A DNA stretch of 64,000 bases from IMG/VR virus record IMGVR_UViG_3300022902_000006. One strand, 5' to 3'. The notes below the pieces were generated by a model. That model was not told the origin of the DNA. It did not search any database and saw only the letters and a program-made list of their open reading frames with translations. Source of the DNA: a virus. Shown here piece by piece: positions 24,311-58,483 of this stretch (within the stretch, counting starts at the first letter, position 1; each line of letters opens with the position of its first letter). The position numbers and the translations under genes are program-made.

Positions 24311-24385
24311 TCGGGGTGAGAGGATTTGAACCTCCGACATCCTGCTCCCAAAGCAGGCGCGCTGACCAGACTGCGCTACACCCCG
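24311..24385 (-). tRNA. tRNA-Pro (TGG)
   Basis: CGGGGTG/CACCCCG acceptor, loop TT-TGG-GA, canonical T-arm. Confidence 0.95.
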
Positions 24386-33898: not shown

Positions 33899-33973
33899 CA
33901 ACCCCAACGGGATTTGAACCCGTGTCACCGGCGTGAAAGGCCGGTGTCCTTGGCCATGCTAGACGATGGGGTC
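33899..33973 (-). tRNA. tRNA-Glu (TTC)
   Basis: GACCCCA/TGGGGTT acceptor, loop CT-TTC-AC, T-arm ACGGG-TTCAAAT-CCCGT. Confidence 0.9.
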
Positions 33974-49708: not shown

Positions 49709-50397
49709 TCAGGGCAGCAACACCGGGAGGTGCTCCACGAACAGGTCGCGCACCTGGTTCATGATGTCGCGGATCTCCCACTGGGCGTGGGGGTCGCAGC
49801 GCATCTTGAACACGTGGAGCCACTGGCGCAGGTTGAAGGTGGTGTACACGGCGGTCGCCGTTGCCGTGTGGGCAGGGAGAAGCGAGCGTCCTCAGCGGGG
49901 ATACCCAACTCACGGAGGCGCTTGTACATCACGTAGTCCATGCGGGAGGTGTGCAGGAAGGCGTACAGCGCTGAGTTAAGGGGTGTGGACTCCAGGAAGT
50001 ACTCGGAGATCATGCCGTCCTCGGGGAGGCAGTGTTCATCCTTGCCCATGATGCTCGGCGGAACGATGATCTTCAGCGCGTCGTGCTTGTCGGTGTTGGA
50101 GTAGTCGCAGTAGCGCATGGACTCCTGCGTGAAGGCAGCGAGACGGTGCCGGACGAGCTGGTGGCTCATGGCCCGGGACCCGGTGAACAGCACCGTGATG
50201 GAGGCGTGTTCCAGAATGCTCTCGTGGCCCATCTTCATGGCCACCTTGGCGATGAACTTCTCGGCGCTGCCTTCCCTGATGCGACCCTCGCTGCGGTGGC
50301 TAACACGGCCACACTCCTCACACAGCTCCAGCAGCTTGTGCCAGGTGGACACGTCGGGGGTGATGACTTCAGCGCTCGGTTTGATGATTTGCAGCAT
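49709..50397 (-). CDS. thyX: FAD-dependent thymidylate synthase, frame broken near 49870
   Basis: GHESILEH, RHRLAAFTQESMRY signature; C-terminal TFNLRQW.H....RC..HAQWEIR lies in the -1 frame. Confidence 0.9.
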
Positions 50398-50426
50398 ATC
50401 TCTTCGACTCCTGAGTTTGTTAGTGT

Positions 50427-50747
50427 TTATGAAAACAACAACGCGATGGTGAGCACGGCGCACAGCACGCCCAACCCGATGGTTGCGTAGACCCAGAGAC
50501 GTGTGAACTGGCCCTGCGTCGTCATCGCGTCCTCGAATGCTTGGCGCTCTATTCTCGCGACGGCGGTGTTTTCGTTGAGTGTTTGCACCGCATTCTTGTA
50601 GTTGAACTCCGTTACCCGCAGCGCATCACTCAGCTTTCGCACTTCAGCCAGGGCTTCACCGCGCTCACGGTGGCATCGCTTCCCATCTCCCTGCGCAGTG
50701 TGGAGGTCCTTTCGCAGCTCTCGGATTATTTCATCCTTGCTCGGCAT
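50427..50747 (-). CDS. coiled-coil protein with C-terminal membrane helix
   Basis: LWVYATIGLGVLCAVLTIALLF. Confidence 0.6.
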   Translation of the reverse strand: MPSKDEIIRELRKDLHTAQGDGKRCHRERGEALAEVRKLSDALRVTEFNYKNAVQTLNENTAVARIERQAFEDAMTTQGQFTRLWVYATIGLGVLCAVLTIALLFS

Positions 50748-50749
50748 GA

Positions 50750-51145
50750 CTACTTCCCTCGTCTCTGGTAAGCGCGCACTCTATCACTCTTGGGGGCCAA
50801 TTCGTCCAGCCATTCCGTCAAGACCTTACGCACCTTCTTGCTCTGCGCAGTCTTGTTCGTGGGCATACGCTCCTCGACCCACTGCCCGGCGATCAGTGCA
50901 GCGTTGAACCTATCACCCCACACCAGACCTTTGGGGTCCACGGGGAGCATGATGAGCGTGTGTACCTGCTCGGAACTCTTCACCAGGATGCGACCCTTGT
51001 CGCCCGCCTTGTTCACGAAGAGGACGGCTTGTCCTGGCTTCAGTTTGTACTGGCTGGAAGTGAGGTGCATCGTGTTGGCTTGCCAACTCACCGTGCGCAG
51101 ATCTGTTGGGCGCACGACAGTCTTGATGACCCATTCGTGGGACAT
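50750..51145 (-). CDS. IS66 Orf2-like small protein (tentative)
   Basis: PTDLR...G.A.LFVNK...K..IL resembles the IS66 accessory protein; AAGGAG RBS. Confidence 0.4.
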   Translation of the reverse strand: MSHEWVIKTVVRPTDLRTVSWQANTMHLTSSQYKLKPGQAVLFVNKAGDKGRILVKSSEQVHTLIMLPVDPKGLVWGDRFNAALIAGQWVEERMPTNKTAQSKKVRKVLTEWLDELAPKSDRVRAYQRRGK

Positions 51146-51197
51146 GAGGCTCCTTCTTTTTTAGGGTGGTGGGGGTAGTAACAAGCAAGTGGGGCAC

Positions 51198-52524
51198 GTC
51201 ACAGATATGAAGCCTCTGTGCTGGCGTGGGAGACATTGGCCGTTGTCGCCAGTACAAGGCCCTGGCGCTGGCGTAACGACGTGTATCGCTCGTCACAAAT
51301 ACAAAGCCCCTGTGCTGGCGTAGCGTCAATCGTTTCAAGTCACAAATACTAAGCCTTTGTGCTGGCATAATGGTATCTGGCTTAGGGGCACAAATACAAA
51401 GCCTCTGCGCTGGCGTTGCCACCTATGTTGCACGTCATCAGTATAAAGCCCTGACGCTGGCCCTTAGATACGTTCAGCGTTGGGGGCACAGATATCAAGC
51501 CTCTGCGCTGGCATAAGTGCACTCCAGACCTGGGTCACGAATACGAAGCCTCCGTGTTGGCATTATCCAGGTACGTCCATCGGCGTCAGTACAAGGCCCT
51601 GACGCGGGCGTAGGAGAGAAGTCTGGATCACAGATACAAAACCTCTGCGCGGGTGTAAAGACGACTGCGAGGTCGGCGCAGAAACAAAGCCTCTGCGCTG
51701 GCGTGAAGAAACTATACAAGGCGCTACAGATACGAAGCCTCTGTATCGGCGTCAAACCAACCCATGTGCTTATCACGAGTATGAGGCCCCCGTGCTGGCA
51801 TGGAAGTAGAATCCTAGATCAAGGCGGTAGTACAAAGCCCCATCGCTGGCATTATTGATCAGGCAATTCTATCGCAGATACCAAGCCTCCGCGCTGGCGT
51901 TATCGATTTCCTCAATGGCGCAGATACAACGCCCCTGCGCTGGCACAGCATGTTCATGATGGCGGTCACAGATACAAAGCCTCTGCGCTGGCGTATACAA
52001 AGCGAAGTACGTTGTGGGTACGAAGCCCCCGCGCTGGCACAGACGTTCAAGAAGGCGTCGTCAGTACAAAGCCCCAACGTTGGTGTAGGAGAGAAGCCTG
52101 AGTCACAGATACGAAGCCTCTGTGTTGGCGCAACAGCAGGGCGGTTAATGTCGTCGGTACAACGCCCCGACGCGGGCACGGTTCCGTTTGGGGGTAGGTC
52201 GTCGGTACAACGCCCCAACGCGGGCACTGAACAAGTTGGAATTCGGTCACAGATACGAAGCCTCTGCGCTGGCATAGGGAGCTATGTCTATCGTTGTCAG
52301 TACAAAGCCCTGGCGCGGGCGTAATGCTCATGGTGGCGGTCACAGATACAAAGCCACCGTGCTGGCGTATAACATAGCGTTCATCATAGGCGCAGATACG
52401 AAGCCTTCGCGCTGGCACAGATTAGTGTAGTAGTTTCACAGGCTGCTTGTCACAGATACCAAGCCTCTGTGCGGGCACCACCAGGAGTCCCACATGGGCA
52501 CAAGTACAAAGCCCTCATGCTGGC
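51198..52524 (-). CRISPR. CRISPR array: 28 degenerate 28-nt repeats (30 nt with a conserved RY), 27 spacers
   Basis: - strand consensus (RY)GCCAG-CRCAGA-GGCTTYGTA-TCTGYG-AC; spacers 17-23 nt (one 32); starts 4 nt after the cas stop codon. Confidence 0.9.
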
Positions 52525-52528
52525 GTTG

Positions 52529-54295
52529 TTATGCATTTTTCGTGTGGCGCTTTGCCCACTTCGCTTGGCGGGGTGCGGTATTTACGGCGTAATCCTTGAC
52601 CTTGGTGGGCACAGCTTCCTTAGCCCCCTGCTGGTGTTCGTCCCAGCGAAGCAGCAGGTTGTGCGCTGCGTTAGCGTCCTGATCCCAGTTTGCCTGGCAC
52701 TCGCTGCATGTGTGCATCACCTCTTTTGAGGCGTCCCAGGGTTCTTCCGGGTGGTCGCCACACACCGCACAATCCTGTGTGGTCATCGCTGCATTCACCT
52801 CAGCGACGGCGCCGAGACGCATCGCAAACCCATTGATGAGGTTGCTACGCAGTACCGAACACGCGGCGTCCCGTTGGTACAACCGGGCAGAAGCGATCTC
52901 TCCCTTATCAGACTCGGGGAGGACGTGCCGTTGCATTACGCTCAAATCGAACTGTTCCAGGACAAGAGTGTGGTACTTCCGCGAGAGGCGAGCGGCGATG
53001 TTACGGTACTGGTCCTTGCGGCGAGCGAGGCTCTTGTCACGTTGATTTGCTTCCCAGGACAACAGGTGCTTATCCTGCTTACGCCAGTCTTCCAAGCGCG
53101 GGTAGGCCAGGGTGTCACCTGCGAAGCGGGAGTCCCGCCACGTACGTGCAAGCGCCGCTAGGCGTGCCGTTGAACGCCAAGCATGCAACGTCGTTGCAGC
53201 CTCAATCAACCAGTCAGGGAGCGACGCCCCTTGTTTCGTTTGGCGGCGCATCCACGCAGCCAGCCAATCACGCTCAATGTTGAAGTTCTTGTCACGTGTG
53301 CTGCGCAGGTCCTCGACCTTGCGGAACCCAGAGCGGACAGCCCCCTCAAGGAGGATCTCCTCCTCATATCCTTGGTTGTCACGGAAGTACGCGACACGGA
53401 GGAGTCCACTGGGACGCACACGCCACCCAATGTCCACGGCCACAGTGCCAGTGCCACATGTTTCGCGGCGCCAGCCATCAGGGAGCGACAATGTAAAGTG
53501 GACGCTCCAGCGATCCTTGCCCGCCAGGCGTTCACGCAGAACTTTGACATCCTTGATCGTGGCCACCCGAGGCAGAGGACGGTGCAGGATGAGCGGCCAG
53601 GTTGCCCAGATGGGCGTCGTTTTGCCCTGCACGGTACCAACACGCATCTTCAACTCAGAGCGCTTCGGGTTCGAACCGACGAAGATGCGCAGAAGTGTAC
53701 TGTCACAGGCTAGTGCCTCAAAACTACTCAACCCTTTTTGTATCTGTACAGCGACGGCACCATGCCCCGTCCAACGCCGAAAGTGGGGGTCCACAAACGC
53801 AGCTTTGCGTGCTGCATCCACGGCCTTCTCAATAATTAGATATGTACCCCAGTAGCAACCACAGATTGCGCGTTCTTTCCGGATAGTAGCCTGCGCACTT
53901 TCATTCACCTTGTTGATGGCTGTCTGTACCGCCGTGTCATCCTTGAGTGCAGCTTTAGCCTTGCGCAGTTCCGCACGCACTGTCTTGAGCTGCTGCCGTG
54001 CAATCTTCACACGCTTCCGTTGCTCCTTGGTGGAAGAACGTGAACGTGATGCTCTGTGTGTCGCCCGGAGATCAGCGATTGCAGCATCAACGACTGCTTT
54101 TTTCGCTGTCGCTTCTTCTTCGAGAGGTTCTACCGTCGGATGGACACCCATGATGGCGCGTACCTTCTTACGGCGGTCACGTTCAATCTCGATGAGTTTG
54201 TTGTAATACTGATGTGCCAAATGTATCTGGTCGGATACGAGATCCACGTTTTCACACGGGGGTCTAAGCCCGTAGCGATACACTAGAATGGGCAT
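52529..54295 (-). CDS. cas12m: miniature type V effector of the Cas12m (V-U1) clade, 588 aa
   Basis: GAGGAG RBS; YRYGL..P...LAH, YWGTY, RRW.G.G...VQ, LHRPLP, RuvC-I VDIGWR, RuvC-II LVLEQ, two CxxC, RuvC-III DQDANAA; adjacent array. Confidence 0.8.
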   Translation of the reverse strand: MPILVYRYGLRPPCENVDLVSDQIHLAHQYYNKLIEIERDRRKKVRAIMGVHPTVEPLEEEATAKKAVVDAAIADLRATHRASRSRSSTKEQRKRVKIARQQLKTVRAELRKAKAALKDDTAVQTAINKVNESAQATIRKERAICGCYWGTYLIIEKAVDAARKAAFVDPHFRRWTGHGAVAVQIQKGLSSFEALACDSTLLRIFVGSNPKRSELKMRVGTVQGKTTPIWATWPLILHRPLPRVATIKDVKVLRERLAGKDRWSVHFTLSLPDGWRRETCGTGTVAVDIGWRVRPSGLLRVAYFRDNQGYEEEILLEGAVRSGFRKVEDLRSTRDKNFNIERDWLAAWMRRQTKQGASLPDWLIEAATTLHAWRSTARLAALARTWRDSRFAGDTLAYPRLEDWRKQDKHLLSWEANQRDKSLARRKDQYRNIAARLSRKYHTLVLEQFDLSVMQRHVLPESDKGEIASARLYQRDAACSVLRSNLINGFAMRLGAVAEVNAAMTTQDCAVCGDHPEEPWDASKEVMHTCSECQANWDQDANAAHNLLLRWDEHQQGAKEAVPTKVKDYAVNTAPRQAKWAKRHTKNA

Positions 54296-54314: not shown

Positions 54315-54773
54315 TCAGATGATTTCGTCGTCAGGGTGTCGTAGTGGGGGTTCAACGATGTGTACGGCGTGGGCGCAGTCTTGGGTGTCAACACCCAGGT
54401 TGCCACGTAGGAACATGGCGTAGCGCTCGTCAGGACCAACGGCTGTGACGTGTCGCCCTCGGCGGATCATCTGGAGGGGGTGCACCGTTTTGTAGTGGAC
54501 AGCGCAGCCTTTGGTGACTGTGTGGATGCCTCGGGTGTTCTTCATATAAACGTGGATTGAAACCCCTTCCGGGATTGGTGCATGTTGTCCGTGGCGCATC
54601 TTAGTGCAGACGTACACATGTTCGTAGATGTTGAAGAGGAGGCAGAAGCAACGGTTACAATAGCGCACACGGTACATGCGCTGCACCTTGGAGGGGAACT
54701 TCTGTTGCTGGAGGCAGGGGATTGCCAGAGCACAGTGTCCACAGGCTTTGTCGGTGGTGAGGATGGTTCTCAT
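54315..54773 (-). CDS. Cys-rich paralogue 11 (divergent)
   Basis: CGHCALAIPC...CNRC...C. Confidence 0.7.
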   Translation of the reverse strand: MRTILTTDKACGHCALAIPCLQQQKFPSKVQRMYRVRYCNRCFCLLFNIYEHVYVCTKMRHGQHAPIPEGVSIHVYMKNTRGIHTVTKGCAVHYKTVHPLQMIRRGRHVTAVGPDERYAMFLRGNLGVDTQDCAHAVHIVEPPLRHPDDEII

Positions 54774-55216
54774 GGCTTCTTTATGGGGAGGGAGAAGGCC
54801 CCTGATTGCAACGCGTGGAGCGTCTCATCGAGGAACTCTTCGTCCATGTCATGGATTGGTGTTTGGAAGTCGTACCCCCCTTTGTGCAGGATACAACTGG
54901 GGCACACTCCCGCGTTTATGTAGATGCCGAGGACAGGGTCTTTGATGCGCGTCTCAGGGGTGCCTGTGGCGTTCGCCGCAGCGACGTAGTTTGGCACACA
55001 AGAGGAGTCGGTCATGCTGCGCCGCTCACACCTGAACATCACCACCTTCTTGACTCGGGGTATGTGGGTGCGAGACTGCATTGATTCAGGTACGGGGTAG
55101 GTTTCTTTAAGGACGAAGCGTGTACACCTCACGCACAGGAAGGTTTCACTGTTGTTCATCTTGAACAACGCCCCGGAGAGGCAAGCGACGGCGAAGGGAC
55201 AGCGCTTACATTTCAT
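54770..55216 (-). CDS. Cys-rich paralogue 10
   Basis: MKCKRCPFAVAC...LCVRC...CERR...DP...CPSC. Confidence 0.85.
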   Translation of the reverse strand: MKCKRCPFAVACLSGALFKMNNSETFLCVRCTRFVLKETYPVPESMQSRTHIPRVKKVVMFRCERRSMTDSSCVPNYVAAANATGTPETRIKDPVLGIYINAGVCPSCILHKGGYDFQTPIHDMDEEFLDETLHALQSGAFSLPIKKP

Positions 55217-55590
55217 CCGATCTTCTTCCGGTGATCCTGCGCAGCGGCTTGTTGTAGTTCCTCCGACACACACGTGGAACACTTGCCCAACGGGATGTCG
55301 GTACCTGTCATTGGGTCCGTGACGTACGCAATAGTGTTTCTCGATGTAACAGCCTCGGACACTTGTTCGTGCACAAAATTGGACTCTGGGGGGCTGCGTT
55401 TCTCACAAAGGAATTCCACTATACGTTTGGGTTGTGGGATGACACGCACACACACTGTTTCCGCCACAGGGGGATTCTCAATGATGATGAGGCGGGAACA
55501 TTTAGCGCACAGACACACGTAGCTGCTGTTTATTTTGAACAGCGCCCCGGACATGCACGCAACCACGAAAGGACAGCGCTTACACTTCAT
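55213..55590 (-). CDS. Cys-rich paralogue 9
   Basis: MKCKRCPFVVAC...LCAKC...CEKR...DP...CSTC. Confidence 0.85.
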   Translation of the reverse strand: MKCKRCPFVVACMSGALFKINSSYVCLCAKCSRLIIIENPPVAETVCVRVIPQPKRIVEFLCEKRSPPESNFVHEQVSEAVTSRNTIAYVTDPMTGTDIPLGKCSTCVSEELQQAAAQDHRKKIG

Positions 55591-56041
55591 CGAGGTGCTC
55601 CACGGCGTATACCTCCTTGTCCCCAATGGCTTGGGGCACGGCGCCTTTGCATTCCTCACATTTGGTAATCTTGATGTGGCTCGTACCTCCCGGCGACATC
55701 GGGTCTATGGGCTCACCCAAGGCTCCTGATGATAATTTATCCAGGTTGAAGACGTCTACCTGGGGGATGTCGTAGATATCCAGGAACGCACGGTCCAGCT
55801 TCTCACAGTGGAGGTATCGACGCGCGGCAACGGCTACTTCTGTTTGCCATACACGCAGAGGGTTGTCGGGTGGTGACCCGGGAGCAGGGTCCACGTCGAT
55901 GAGTTCGTAGGATGTGACCTGCAACCGCGCGCACTCACGACAAAGGAGGATTGTGATGCTGCTCCCTATCACTGCGCCCACCTCTGATTGGAGCTTTCCC
56001 GCCATGCACAGCAGCACATAAGGACACCGGCTACACTTCAC
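55580..56041 (-). CDS. Cys-rich paralogue 8
   Basis: (V)KCSRCPYVLLC...LCREC...CEK...DP...CEEC. Confidence 0.85.
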   Translation of the reverse strand: MKCSRCPYVLLCMAGKLQSEVGAVIGSSITILLCRECARLQVTSYELIDVDPAPGSPPDNPLRVWQTEVAVAARRYLHCEKLDRAFLDIYDIPQVDVFNLDKLSSGALGEPIDPMSPGGTSHIKITKCEECKGAVPQAIGDKEVYAVEHLDEV

Positions 56042-56585
56042 GCCCGTCCTTTCCTTTGATCCCCCAGGGGTGCACCAGCGCTTCCATTGCCCCACTGTCC
56101 CGCGCTCGCTTGAACGCCAGCTCGTCGTCCAGGTTCACGATGCGGTAGGCGCTGAAGGCACCATGCCTGCGCTCCTCACAATTACAGCGGTTGCAAACCT
56201 GCATGCGGAGAACTGTTCCACCTACGGGGTCCACGACGTTCATTGTGATGGGCTCCGCCAAGGAAGACATGTGGTCTCCCGGGTCACCCACGGTAGATGT
56301 GGCAATACCTTTGCCTTCCGCAGTGTTCCGTACCCGATCAACAATATCCGCGTAGCTTCGCTTCTCACAGATGAGGTAGGTCAGCGTCCCATCGTAGGGC
56401 AACACACCATGAAACTGCCGATAGAATTCAACAGTGTCAGCGGGTTCATTAGGCCCCGGACCAGCCTTGGCGTGCACAAGCTCAAGGCGCCGACACCGAT
56501 AGCAGAGCGACGCAGTGCGGTCCTTGGAGTGCAGGAGCGTTCCACCGAGGCACGGCAAGACGAGAGGGCACTCTTTACATTTCAT
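56031..56585 (-). CDS. Cys-rich paralogue 7
   Basis: MKCKECPLVLPC...LCYRC...CEKR...DP...CNRC. Confidence 0.85.
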   Translation of the reverse strand: MKCKECPLVLPCLGGTLLHSKDRTASLCYRCRRLELVHAKAGPGPNEPADTVEFYRQFHGVLPYDGTLTYLICEKRSYADIVDRVRNTAEGKGIATSTVGDPGDHMSSLAEPITMNVVDPVGGTVLRMQVCNRCNCEERRHGAFSAYRIVNLDDELAFKRARDSGAMEALVHPWGIKGKDGREV

Positions 56586-57067
56586 GGCGTGTCTCCCGTG
56601 GGGACGATGATCTTTCGCAGCTCACTCTCCTCCCGCAGTCTCTCTCGGATGAGGTTGCCCCCAGCCTGCCCCACCGCTTCAAAGATGGCCACCGTCTGCT
56701 TCGCCATCATCTCTGTGATTGCAGGGTCAGTGAAGGTGACCTTCCGGGAGTCCAGGTCCTCGTGCAGCTTAATGCGGTAAGGGAGAACACGGCGGTCCTC
56801 GGGGTCACACATGGTGCAGCCCGAGACGAGCAGTGGGCCACCGTCCACAGGGTCCACGAGCTGAACACCACGACGTACCTCCGGAGCGGCGCGGTACTGG
56901 AACTGCAGCACGTCAAGGTTCCTCTTCTCACACACGAAGTGCAAGCTGCGGGGCTCCTGCACGAGTAGTTCGAGACGCCCACACTGAGGACATAGGCGCA
57001 TAACGATGGCGCTGTGGAAGGTACCCTGCATGCATGGTAGGGCGACGGGGCAGTGTTTGCATTTCAT
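56582..57067 (-). CDS. Cys-rich paralogue 6
   Basis: MKCKHCPVALPC...LCPQC...CEKR...DP...CTMC. Confidence 0.85.
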   Translation of the reverse strand: MKCKHCPVALPCMQGTFHSAIVMRLCPQCGRLELLVQEPRSLHFVCEKRNLDVLQFQYRAAPEVRRGVQLVDPVDGGPLLVSGCTMCDPEDRRVLPYRIKLHEDLDSRKVTFTDPAITEMMAKQTVAIFEAVGQAGGNLIRERLREESELRKIIVPTGDTP

Positions 57068-57624
57068 GATTTCTTCTCTTTGTCACCAAGGATGTACTCT
57101 GGTGGCACACCCGTACCTCGTATCATGAGATTGAGCGTAGCATCGTATCGCTCACGCATGGTGTTTGTCTTACGTACTTGGCGTAGTGTTTTTAGGAGCA
57201 CACTTCTTTTCTTAGCCATCTCAGCATCGGGGTCCTTTGCTGAAAAGGTGATTCGCTGCATGTCGAGGTCCTCGTACATTTCTACCACGTACAGATTGTG
57301 CCGAGGTCCGTCACACCGGATGCAAGCAGACACAGGCAGGAAACCGCCGGACACTGGGTCGACAACCTGAATGCCTCTTCCATCCTTGGGAGCATCAATA
57401 ATAGCTTGTTGCAATGTAAGCAGGTTCCTCTTCTCACACCGGAAGTACAGCGCGCGCTTTACGCGGTAAACTGGGCCGTTGAGAGCACCACGCGTTTTAA
57501 CGGGGAGCACCTCAAATAGCCCACATACTTGGCACAAGTTGATGATGACTGCGAAGGCGTGGTGATTGTCGAACCACACCCCCTGCATACACGGCAAGGC
57601 CAGGGGACAGTTTCCACACTTCAA
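57064..57624 (-). CDS. Cys-rich paralogue 5
   Basis: TTG start; KCGNCPLALPC...LCQVC...CEKR...DP...CIRC. Confidence 0.85.
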   Translation of the reverse strand: MKCGNCPLALPCMQGVWFDNHHAFAVIINLCQVCGLFEVLPVKTRGALNGPVYRVKRALYFRCEKRNLLTLQQAIIDAPKDGRGIQVVDPVSGGFLPVSACIRCDGPRHNLYVVEMYEDLDMQRITFSAKDPDAEMAKKRSVLLKTLRQVRKTNTMRERYDATLNLMIRGTGVPPEYILGDKEKKS

Positions 57625-58028
57625 AACAAAGACCCTCCTGGCCCTGCTCCTGGACCGAAAATGAGGTTGTGAACCTCGTTGATGAGTTCCGTCGCGCACT
57701 CTTCACACAGGGTTACGAGGAAGTCTTTCCCTAGAACAACAGGAACGTGACTGTACGAAAAGCGTTGCACCTCCTCCCGCTTCCTTTTCACCACGCGTCG
57801 GATGGCATTTTCGAAGGCCCCCTTGAGTTTGTTGGCAGAGTAGTTTTCACTTTGTACGCAGATAGGTAGGAGGTCCCACACCTCGTGGATCTCAGCTTGC
57901 CCCACTCGCAATACTTGCACCTTGTTACATGTTGGACACACCACGATCCCGCGCACTGGTTCCTTTCCCGCCAGACATGCTAGAGCGTGGGGGCATTTGG
58001 CACAGGCTGATGTTATTTCATGAATCAT
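57621..58028 (-). CDS. Cys-rich paralogue 4
   Basis: CAKCPHALAC...VCPTC...C...CEEC. Confidence 0.8.
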   Translation of the reverse strand: MIHEITSACAKCPHALACLAGKEPVRGIVVCPTCNKVQVLRVGQAEIHEVWDLLPICVQSENYSANKLKGAFENAIRRVVKRKREEVQRFSYSHVPVVLGKDFLVTLCEECATELINEVHNLIFGPGAGPGGSLF

Positions 58029-58483
58029 GATCCATAGCTACCGGGCCGAGACACCACCCCCACGTTCTCGTGGATGGTGCTAGGGTCGTAGCCTCGCAGA
58101 GCATCAGGGTGGTCGTCCACATCAATGTACAAGACGCGTGTGCTCCGGTTGAAGTATTTGCTCTGTCCGAAGATAGCATCACAGAGGCCACACGTTTCGT
58201 CCTCGTTCCGCTGCATCGCTGCCTTACGTACGAGCTTATACCCTGTGATGTAGGGGCGATCGGCAGGTTCCATGCTTTTGACCGGAGGGCACTCGAAGAT
58301 CCAAACGATGTCGTGTAACACCAATATCTCAGGTACCCCATTTTTCCCTGGGATACGGATGTGCCTGTCTCCACGTGGGGCAAGTACGGCGGTACGCTCA
58401 CACCCCTCGCACAGATGCATAAACCCAGGTGGCTCCCCATTCTGCATGCACGGGATAGCGAAAGGGCATCTACGACAATCCAC
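58025..58483 (-). CDS. Cys-rich paralogue 3
   Basis: GTG start; CRRCPFAIPC...LCEGC...C...CGLC. Confidence 0.8.
   Translation of the reverse strand: MDCRRCPFAIPCMQNGEPPGFMHLCEGCERTAVLAPRGDRHIRIPGKNGVPEILVLHDIVWIFECPPVKSMEPADRPYITGYKLVRKAAMQRNEDETCGLCDAIFGQSKYFNRSTRVLYIDVDDHPDALRGYDPSTIHENVGVVSRPGSYGS

What the first reader, a model, noticed from the sequence alone, without database searches (positions are those of the whole stretch)
51198..52524. CRISPR repeats diversified with compensatory changes: structure conserved, sequence not
Seen: nearly every repeat differs, yet the 6-bp stem is retained through different perfect pairings (+ strand CACAGA/TCTGTG, CGCCAG/CTGGCG, CACAAA/TTTGTG, CGTCAG/CTGACG, TACAGA/TCTGTA, CGCAGA/TCTGCG, CGTCGG/CCGACG). 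Most imperfect stems become G.U pairs on the - strand, which fixes the orientation. The 5-prime GCC can pair with loop GGC as a pseudoknot, and repeat 10 (51627) changes both to ACC/GGT. Established: Cas1-Cas2 copying keeps repeats near-identical. Inference: a long-lived, acquisition-independent guide library selected for function, with divergence limiting recombinational loss. Standard CRISPR finders may miss it.
Basis: partly seen in the sequence, partly recalled or inferred. Interest (0 to 1): 0.9.

Follow-up and report, generated by a model that had tools for sequence, protein, structure and literature searches.

The report
Compact, scrambled-repeat Cas12m guide array
A 180-kb phage carries a small DNA-binding CRISPR enzyme (Cas12m) followed by 28 guide-RNA units, each trimmed to the size of one finished guide RNA, whose repeats have all drifted apart in sequence while keeping the RNA fold the enzyme grips. 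It looks like a fixed, inherited guide set rather than an updatable immune memory.

Summary
Window 51195-52527 (minus strand) holds 28 units with a 45-51 nt period (one of 60). All 28 repeats differ, with mean pairwise identity 70.8%. The 6-bp helix and the 3-bp GCC/GGC pseudoknot pair in 96.8% of cells, and all six helix pairs show double compensatory changes.

The array starts 2 nt after the stop codon of a 588-aa Cas12m gene (52529-54295, minus; PDB Cas12m E 2.6e-75; D-E-D RuvC triad). The complete phage genome has no Cas1, Cas2 or Cas4.

The fold matches solved Cas12m crRNA scaffolds nucleotide for nucleotide. Each unit has a ~31-nt handle and a 16-17-nt guide, the size of one mature Cas12m crRNA. 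What is missing relative to the family's usual 72-73-nt unit is the segment normally trimmed off.

Among 37 related arrays, five others are compact, four of them also diversified. They are scattered on the Cas12m tree, and two show the change along the array.

I could not show any targets, expression, or selection for recombination-proofing.

This scan has noted similar scrambled Cas12m arrays in other phages. I found no published description.

The parts
52529..54295 (-). cas12m gene, 588 aa (type V-M effector) with RuvC motifs D288, E447 and D540
   Evidence: PDB 23vw Cas12m E 2.6e-75; Cas12m2 8hhl E 1e-19. Pfam Cas12f1-like_TNB. The called product P0001 is 100% identical. Triad columns were read.
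51195..52527 (-). Array of 28 guide units. Each has a ~31-nt handle (N-R-Y + GCCAG + 6-nt arm + 9-nt loop starting GGC + 6-nt arm + AC) followed by a guide of mostly 16-17 nt. It begins 2 nt after the cas12m stop codon.
   Evidence: The covariance model R1 scores all 28 units at 35-48 bits; the next best hit in the 180-kb genome scores 17.8 bits.
51962..51995 (-). Unit r12, identical to the array consensus (GCCAG CGCAGA GGCTTTGTA TCTGTG AC)
   Evidence: 28/28 to consensus; best R1 score, 48.2 bits.
51627..51654 (-). The pseudoknot changed on both sides, to ACC/GGT.
   Evidence: pair 4-17: AU in 1 unit.
52057..52084 (-). Unit r10: ACC at the 5' end but GGC in the loop, the single broken pseudoknot pair
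   Evidence: pair 4-17: other in 1 unit.
52417..52448 (-). The only long spacer (32 nt; unit period 60), second unit from the gene
52085..52101 (-). Guide s09 (TCAGGCTTCTCTCCTAC), related to guide s19 at 51610-51626 (CCAGACTTCTCTCCTAC; 15 of 17)
   Evidence: The flanking repeats are also related (family D7, 78% over 78 nt).
52321..52338 (-). Guide s04 (CGCCACCATGAGCATTAC), related to guide s12 at 51945-51964 (13 of the first 16). The differences at positions 6 and 12 would be synonymous in the frame R-H-H-E-H.
   Evidence: the codon reading is my inference.
51178..51197 (-). Last guide-like segment after unit 28. It ends in TAC as the others do, but no repeat follows.
50750..51145 (-). Next gene on the same strand (131 aa, no family hit), with a strong GAAGGAG ribosome-binding site 53 nt after the last repeat
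54315..59473 (-). Context: a run of tandem paralogous Cys-rich small genes ending 19 nt before the cas12m start
   Evidence: gene calls. Eight members aligned (54315 to about 58030): shared MKCKxCP..C, C..C, CEKR, DPV.G and C..C motifs. No Pfam or PHROG hit for the two tested. The outer limit of 59473 comes from scan note e1-5813795 and was not checked.

Best explanation
This is the guide-RNA array of a phage-borne type V-M (Cas12m) CRISPR system, in an aged and streamlined state.

How it most likely works:
- The array is transcribed with cas12m as its 3' extension.
- Cas12m recognises each handle by shape. The handle is a 6-bp helix stacked on a 3-bp pseudoknot, with a few fixed bases: C-27, C-26, G-17, G-16, T-13 and T-10.
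- Cas12m cuts the transcript into about 47-48-nt crRNAs.
- It uses the 16-17-nt guides to bind matching DNA next to a PAM. This blocks transcription or replication of a host or rival-element target. Cleavage cannot be excluded because the RuvC triad is D-E-D.

How it most likely got this way:
- The phage has no adaptation genes, so the array stopped turning over.
- Without new leader-end repeats being copied in, the 28 repeats drifted apart. Selection for Cas12m binding kept every helix paired through compensatory changes.
- Small deletions removed the part of each unit that maturation discards anyway: spacer nucleotides beyond about 17, plus the first ~5 nt of the next repeat.
- Some units arose by internal duplication followed by point divergence of repeat and guide.

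Shown: the identity of the effector, the fold, the covariation, the unit size, the absence of Cas1/2/4, and the recurrence in relatives.

Inferred: transcription, processing, DNA binding, deletion as the route to compaction, and the age of the array.
For: Effector:
- PDB Cas12m E 2.6e-75.
- TNB domain.
- Intact D-E-D triad.

Fold:
- 96.8% of cells are paired, all 6 helix pairs have double changes, and the shuffle and slide controls are far lower.
- RNAalifold predicts the same helix.
- The numbering matches solved structures. In PmCas12m, G(-28)-C(-26) pairs with G(-15)-C(-17) and the helix runs from -23 to -3 (10.64898/2026.03.26.714355). Cas12m2 has a pseudoknot plus stem, a G.A closing pair, a disordered 5' end and a 17-bp heteroduplex (PMC10442227).
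- The pseudoknot covaries between orthologous arrays found without any fold criterion: GCC/GGC, AGA/TCT and CCCG/CGGG. It also covaries inside L086 and L008.

Unit size:
- The handle is about 31 nt, with R at -30 in 27/27 units and Y at -29 in 26/27. Guide length has its mode at 16-17 nt.
- Mature PmCas12m crRNA is about 33 nt of repeat plus about 17 nt of guide. Cuts fall after repeat nt 2-3 and at guide nt 17-18, and 17 nt is the optimal guide length.

No adaptation, no tracrRNA:
- No Cas1, Cas2 or Cas4 in a record that CheckV rates 100% complete.
- No anti-repeat.

Ageing model:
- Relatives normally have 36-nt repeats, about 36-nt spacers and a 72-73 nt period.
- L086 starts with 4 identical 72-nt units and continues with 47-54-nt diversified ones. 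L053 grades from 72 to about 52 nt.
- Short-period units are 85.6% identical to their array consensus; long-period units are 95.3% identical.
- Compact arrays need at least 3 origins on the Cas12m tree.

Duplication:
- Two guide pairs are related beyond chance, and their flanking repeats are related too.

Stability:
- The array is identical in three other assemblies.
Against: - No guide has a target. There is nothing in the phage's own genome. There are no exact 20-22-mers for the three longest guides tried in IMG/VR, or for the one tried in GTDB genomes. Matches in phage and plasmid collections are at chance level.
No promoter or terminator signal exceeds chance.
- All assemblies examined are identical, so nothing dates the divergence.
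- The only close relative (83% identical Cas12m) had no retrievable DNA.
- 7 helix cells and 1 pseudoknot cell are unpaired.
- The shuffle control ignores relatedness among units.
- My survey of relatives found units by their fold, which biases it towards folded units. Its unit-level test treats units as independent.
- The tree is the quick version.
- Deletion as the route to compaction is an inference from two mixed arrays.
Confidence: 0.72

Rival explanations
1. Diversity itself is the selected trait. Repeat sequences were driven apart because identical repeats in a phage genome invite recombination or replication slippage that would delete guides. The structure-neutral changes are therefore adaptive rather than mere drift.
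For: - No two of the 28 repeats are identical.
- The longest exact direct repeat in 1.3 kb is 23 nt, and the median shared run between units is 7 nt.
- Identity does not fall with distance along the array, so there is no sign of recent tandem copying except r07/r08.
- Variation nearly saturates the positions that can change without breaking the fold.
Against: - Drift without turnover predicts the same picture.
- L053 is compact yet 90% identical, and L063 is 82% identical, so long arrays persist without strong diversification.
- Conventional relatives keep 20-46 near-identical repeats.
- No test here separates rate from time.
Confidence: 0.2
2. The array is a decaying relic. It lost function when acquisition stopped and is simply mutating away. 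Its apparent structure conservation reflects shared ancestry and composition.
For: - No targets were found for any guide.
- Repeat identity is far below that of working arrays.
- Degenerate distal repeats are common in ordinary arrays (L009).
Against: - 45 doubly changed cells keep pairing, and only 7 of 168 helix cells are unpaired. This is not expected from neutral decay at about 30% divergence.
- Six positions are invariant in all 28 units (C-27, C-26, G-17, G-16, T-13, T-10); solved Cas12m structures place pairing or protein contacts in this part of the scaffold.
- Guide length is held at the functional optimum.
- cas12m is intact.
- The 1.3 kb is retained unchanged in a complete phage genome.
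Confidence: 0.1
3. The array is a mosaic, assembled by recombination from several Cas12m arrays of co-infecting elements. On this view the repeat types reflect different sources rather than divergence in place.
For: - Two broad stem classes exist: CRCAGA/TCTGYG and CGTCAG/CTGACG-like.
- Related phages carry several arrays (L114, L117).
- An earlier scan note describes a mosaic array.
Against: - There are 23 different stem pairs among the 28 units rather than a few discrete types.
- Intermediates linked by single transitions and G.U pairs are frequent.
- The loop and flank consensus is uniform across units.
- None of the non-consensus stems was seen as the consensus of a surveyed relative.
Confidence: 0.08
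4. The units are RNA decoys (an RNA anti-CRISPR). The handles soak up a host or rival Cas12m, and the spacers are irrelevant filler.
For: - Solitary Cas12m-type handles occur in other phages, some on records where no cas12m was detected (L109, L113, L115).
- Phage repeat-derived anti-CRISPR RNAs are known for other types (PMC11656645).
Against: - The array is fused to the phage's own intact cas12m.
- Filler would not be held at 16-17 nt, nor be unique in all 28 units.
- This genome has no dispersed copies.
Confidence: 0.04

Closest known systems
Type V-M CRISPR-Cas (Cas12m; formerly V-U1): MmCas12m2, GoCas12m, PmCas12m
   Same: - The effector is homologous (E 2.6e-75 to a solved Cas12m).
- A single crRNA is used, with no tracrRNA candidate.
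- The handle has the same helix plus pseudoknot at the same nucleotide numbers.
- The guide is about 17 nt.
- There are no adaptation genes.
- The system is carried by a mobile element.
   Different: - Described arrays have one consensus 36-nt repeat and spacers of about 36 nt.
- Here every repeat differs (70.8% identity), the unit is 47-48 nt, and there is no trimmed segment and no leader.
- The RuvC triad is D-E-D, not the H-D-D or N-D-D of the structurally explained non-cutters. D-E-D Cas12m proteins tested by Bigelyte et al. also failed to cut.
MvCas12m of myxophage MV-1 (bioRxiv 10.64898/2026.09.14.751636)
   Same: It is a phage-encoded Cas12m with an adjacent array, no cas1/2/4, D-E-D residues and no protospacers found.
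   Different: MV-1 is reported with one consensus repeat and eight spacers. No repeat diversification or compaction is described.
Virus Rctr197k (KX853510), the only relative in the phage collection
   Same: It is a large phage (197 kb partial) with a Cas12m homologue (33.6% identity) followed at once by its array. The handle layout is the same.
   Different: Its array is conventional: a 36-nt repeat, a 72-nt period, and eight identical leader-end repeats. Only mild variation appears towards the far end.
Engineered non-repetitive guide arrays (for example extra-long sgRNA arrays with diversified handles; from my own knowledge, not checked here)
   Same: Many guides sit in one locus. Handle sequences are varied under a structural constraint, so long exact repeats are absent.
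   Different: Those arrays are designed for genetic stability. Here the diversity is natural and its cause (drift or selection) is not established.
Phage mini-arrays and solitary repeat units (PMC11656645)
   Same: Phage-borne CRISPR parts without adaptation genes, thought to act in competition between elements.
   Different: Those are 1-3 units that usually borrow host Cas proteins. This is a 28-unit array with its own effector.

Membership tests
Type V-M CRISPR-Cas (Cas12m) | Effector is a compact (~600 aa) Cas12m-clade protein with a C-terminal RuvC and a zinc-ribbon (TNB) domain | tested here: met
   588 aa. PDB 23vw Cas12m E 2.6e-75 over residues 51-597 of the 636-aa ORF; Cas12m2 and GoCas12m E 1e-19. 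Pfam PF07282. CxxC...CxxC is conserved.
Type V-M CRISPR-Cas (Cas12m) | Repeat-derived handle folds into a helix plus pseudoknot: -28..-26 pairs with -17..-15, and a helix ends at -3, followed by 2 nt | tested here: met
   Covariation in 28 units. Between-ortholog covariation of the pseudoknot. The numbering is identical to PmCas12m and close to Cas12m2.
Type V-M CRISPR-Cas (Cas12m) | crRNA-only guide, with no tracrRNA | tested here: met
   No sequence complementary to the repeats near the locus or elsewhere in the genome beyond chance. R1 finds no extra copies. The absence of a structured tracrRNA cannot be proven by sequence alone.
Type V-M CRISPR-Cas (Cas12m) | No adaptation module in the locus | tested here: met
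   Pfam Cas1, Cas2 and Cas4 profiles find nothing in the 180,179-bp record, which CheckV rates 100% complete. The same searches hit the control genomes.
Type V-M CRISPR-Cas (Cas12m) | PAM-dependent dsDNA binding without cleavage; silencing of transcription or replication | not testable with these tools
   The triad is D288-E447-D540. D-E-D Cas12m variants tested by Bigelyte et al. did not cut. Omura et al. suggest that D-E-D clades might cut.
Canonical CRISPR array | Near-identical direct repeats separated by unique spacers of uniform length | tested here: not met
   Spacers are unique and regular, but the repeats are 70.8% identical on average and none is repeated. TRF finds nothing. It is a CRISPR array by descent and layout, not by the usual detection criterion.
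TIGR-Tas arrays | Array associated with a Nop-domain Tas protein; dual-spacer units | tested here: not met
   The neighbouring gene is Cas12m, not a Nop-domain protein. Each unit has a single guide.

The most novel reading that the evidence does not exclude
Cas12m arrays on phages follow a repeatable life course from adaptive memory to hard-wired guide set. Once spacer intake stops, units are whittled down to exactly one mature crRNA each. Repeats become free to vary under a purely structural constraint. New specificities then arise by unit duplication and point mutation of guides rather than by acquisition. On this reading the 28 guides are a heritable repression programme aimed at conserved host or rival-phage genes. 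The diversified handles also define, from natural data, which handle positions Cas12m actually reads.
Probability: 0.4. Interest if true: 0.78.

Novelty: new variant of a known kind. Interest (0 to 1): 0.66.

Why it matters
- It would be a natural example of a CRISPR array that works as a germline-encoded, non-adaptive guide library and evolves by mutation and duplication. That bears on how CRISPR parts are re-used by mobile elements.
- The 28 natural handle variants, plus those in L008, L033, L063 and L086, are a ready-made mutational scan of the Cas12m scaffold. They show six invariant positions and free choice of helix sequence. This is directly useful for building non-repetitive multiplex Cas12m arrays for repression and base or epigenome editing.
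- The unit equals the mature crRNA, which suggests that minimal 47-48-nt units can be concatenated without spacers to be trimmed.
- Repeat-identity-based CRISPR finders will overlook such arrays. Phage-encoded CRISPR systems, and the share of them that is fixed rather than adaptive, are therefore probably undercounted.

Tried and rejected
- **Targets.** Guides against the phage's own genome gave chance-level matches only. Exact 20-mers of the three longest guides in IMG/VR gave none. A 22-mer of the 32-nt guide in GTDB genomes gave none. The whole array by blastn against the phage and plasmid collections gave E >= 1 only.
- **Orthologous units in other phages.** Searches for a handle end plus a guide, for two guide families, found none.
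- **Dispersed solitary handles**, as earlier scan notes reported for other phages: none in this genome.
- **Promoter and terminator scan:** nothing above chance.
- **Closest relative** (83% identical Cas12m, 2,096-bp contig): no DNA retrievable. The 52% relative's contig ends 49 nt after the gene.
- **Host.** Relatives cannot be drawn for a virus record. MAG contigs carrying Cas12m relatives come from many phyla and give no host. PHROG scans of large ORFs gave only an RNA polymerase beta-like hit.
- **Rejected readings.** A TIGR-Tas array (wrong neighbouring protein). Iterons or an origin (strand-specific G.U pattern and the Cas12m handle fold). A coding region (the ORFs over the array are repeat artefacts). 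A tracrRNA-dependent system (no anti-repeat).
- **Literature.** Searches of the held papers found no description of structure-preserving repeat diversification or compaction in V-M arrays. Wu et al. 2022 is not held, so this is not exhaustive.

Full report
**What is there.** Window 51198-52524 holds 28 copies of a 28-nt element spaced 45-51 nt apart, with one gap of 60 nt. Tandem Repeats Finder reports nothing. All 28 repeats differ from one another. Mean pairwise identity is 70.8% (11-27 of 28 positions), and similarity does not depend on distance along the array. The longest exact direct repeat in the 1.3 kb is 23 nt. The median longest run shared by two units is 7 nt.

**Is the structure real?** I aligned the units on the minus strand (A1) and tested the helix (columns 9-14 with 24-29) plus the pseudoknot (columns 4-6 with 15-17).
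- 96.8% of 252 cells pair.
- Shuffled partners give 84.2 +/- 1.3% (0 of 500 reach the observed value).
- Partners slid by 1-3 columns give 33-48%.
- All six helix pairs show changes on both sides, 45 cells in total.
- RNAalifold predicts the same helix.
- The helix has 21 G.U cells on the minus strand. Only 6 C.A cells would be G.U on the plus strand. The RNA is therefore the minus strand, the same strand as the adjacent gene.
- The pseudoknot is GCC/GGC in 26 units, ACC/GGU in one, and broken (ACC with GGC) in one.

**What it belongs to.** The array starts 2 nt after the TAA stop codon of a minus-strand gene at 52529-54295 (588 aa).
- The product matches a solved Cas12m structure at E 2.6e-75, and Cas12m2 and GoCas12m at about 1e-19.
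- It carries the Cas12f1-like TNB domain.
- It has the RuvC motifs D288, E447 and D540.
- The window is part of a 180,179-bp IMG/VR virus record that CheckV rates 100% complete.
- Profiles for Cas1, Cas2 and Cas4 find nothing in that record, although the same searches hit the control genomes.
- No anti-repeat exists.
- A covariance model built from the 28 units finds exactly those 28 in the whole genome (35-48 bits; next best 17.8 bits). Unlike some other Cas12m phages, this one has no scattered solitary handles.
- The same phage appears in at least three other assemblies with identical sequence through the locus.

**Agreement with solved Cas12m RNAs.**
- In PmCas12m, G(-28)-C(-26) pair with G(-15)-C(-17), and the helix runs from -23 to -3.
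- Its mature crRNA is about 33 nt of repeat plus about 17 nt of guide.
- Processing cuts after repeat nt 2-3 and at guide nt 17-18, and 17 nt is the optimal guide length (10.64898/2026.03.26.714355).
- In Cas12m2, the first seven repeat nucleotides are disordered, a G.A pair closes the helix, and the heteroduplex is 17 bp (PMC10442227).
- GoCas12m uses a crRNA of about 50 nt with a handle of about 30 nt forming a triplex and pseudoknot (PMC11013384).
- The window repeat has GCC at -28..-26, GGC at -17..-15, the helix at -23..-18 with -8..-3, and G(-24) opposite A or C at -2.
- The three positions before each repeat are also conserved: a purine at -30 in 27 of 27 units and a pyrimidine at -29 in 26 of 27. 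The handle is therefore about 31 nt, and the truly variable guide is mostly 16-17 nt.
- Each 47-48-nt unit is thus the size of one mature crRNA.

**Comparison with relatives.** Relatives in phage, viral and metagenome collections (32-52% identical proteins) normally have a 36-nt repeat, spacers of about 36 nt and a period of 72-73 nt. Their repeats are near-identical, and the array follows the gene after 18-35 nt.
- Their handles share the layout AAY-GCC-NN-helix-GGC...-helix-AC.
- The pseudoknot covaries between them: GCC/GGC, AGA/TCT in Rctr197k, and CCCG/CGGG in L002.
- A fold-based survey of the fetched loci found 37 arrays.
- Five besides this one are compact: L063 (36 units, period 46-47, 82% identity), L033 (68%), an array upstream of the gene in L008 (67%, with repeated ACC/GGU versus GCC/GGC covariation), L086 (74.5%) and L053.
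- L086 begins with four identical 72-nt units and continues with 47-54-nt diversified units whose pseudoknot switches among GGC/GCC, GCC/GGC and AGC/GCU.
- L053 grades from about 72 nt near the gene to about 52 nt at the far end.
- Across arrays, short-period units are 85.6% identical to their array consensus and long-period units 95.3% (Mann-Whitney p about 2e-23; the units are not independent).
- On a quick Cas12m tree the compact arrays are scattered and need at least three origins.
- The difference between a conventional and a compact unit is about 25 nt. That equals spacer nt 18-36 plus the first ~5 repeat nucleotides. These are contiguous in the DNA, and they are the piece discarded during maturation.

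**Most likely history and mechanism.**
- Shown: a Cas12m locus without adaptation genes; handles kept foldable through many compensatory changes; invariant bases at six positions; guides held at the functional length; recurrence of the same state in unrelated Cas12m loci.
- Inferred: the array is co-transcribed with cas12m, since no separate promoter or terminator stands out.
- Inferred: it is processed into 28 crRNAs and used for PAM-dependent DNA binding that silences a host or rival-element target.
- Inferred: the array stopped acquiring spacers. Repeats were then no longer refreshed by copying, and they drifted under structural selection.
- Inferred: the non-functional inter-unit segment was lost by small deletions.
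- Inferred: some units arose by duplication. Guides s09/s19 match at 15 of 17 positions and s04/s12 at 13 of the first 16, and their flanking repeats are also related. The two differences between s04 and s12 at positions 6 and 12 would be synonymous in one frame. This hints at a protein-coding target, but it is only a hint.

**What remains open.**
- No target was found for any guide, and no orthologous unit in other phages.
- With 17-nt guides, single matches in large databases are uninformative, and the host is unknown.
- Expression could not be examined.
L053 and L063 show that compact arrays can persist with more uniform repeats.
- Whether this D-E-D Cas12m cuts DNA is unknown. Tested D-E-D orthologues did not.

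**Novelty.**
- Type V-M systems, their pseudoknotted handle and their lack of adaptation genes are known. Prophage and phage carriage has been mentioned (PMC11656645; 10.64898/2026.09.14.751636).
- I found no paper describing V-M arrays whose repeats are all different yet structurally conserved, or whose units are reduced to mature-crRNA size. The search is not exhaustive, and Wu et al. 2022 is not held.
- Earlier follow-ups in this scan reported the same kind of scrambled Cas12m array in other phage genomes.
- Within this project it is therefore a repeat sighting, and here a particularly clean and extreme one. I rate it a new variant of a known kind.

Noticed in passing
window 54315-59473 (-): Tandem, closely packed paralogous genes for small Cys-rich proteins (MKCKxCP..C, C..C, CEKR, DPV.G, C..C) end 19 nt before cas12m. 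The two tested had no Pfam or PHROG family. They may be functionally linked to the Cas12m operon.
   Followed up: partly
L008:3560-3960 and L008:5812-5920: A relative whose Cas12m is 46% identical has two arrays. A compact, diversified mini-array (about 7 units, period 46-51, ACC/GGT and GCC/GGC handles) lies upstream of the gene. A conventional array (identical 36-nt repeats, period 73) lies downstream.
   Followed up: partly
window 51899-51916 (-); L068 near 7717; L024 near 5202: Guide s13 (ATTGAGGAAATCGATAA) resembles guides in two unrelated Cas12m arrays (ATGGAGGAATTCAATAG and CTGGAGGAGGTCGATAG). The differences look codon-like, as [ILM]-E-E-[IFV]-[DN]. This may be convergent targeting of one conserved gene, but it could be chance.
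   Followed up: no
L110, L112, L114, L117 (IMGVR_UViG_3300023202_000205, 179 kb); L109, L111, L113, L115, L116: Other large phages carry handles almost identical to this array's consensus. One has several arrays and scattered copies. Others have solitary copies, and in three records (two of them incomplete) no cas12m was detected.
   Followed up: partly
G000:C1:72309-73997 (L015:12609-14297): The phage encodes a protein resembling a multisubunit RNA polymerase beta subunit (phrog_3015, E 5e-20), as in jumbo phages that have their own RNA polymerases.
   Followed up: no
window 9219-9444, 15897-16112, 24311-24385, 33899-33973: Six tRNA genes are scattered through the window (Rfam). A ThyX gene (49759-50463) and a DUF3310 nucleotide-kinase-like gene lie just downstream of the locus.
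   Followed up: no
L007, L008, and many contigs listed: Contigs of many Cas12m relatives end within about 50-150 nt after the gene, presumably because assemblies break at identical repeats. Diversified arrays assemble through. Surveys of assembled contigs will therefore over-represent diversified arrays relative to homogeneous ones.
   Followed up: no
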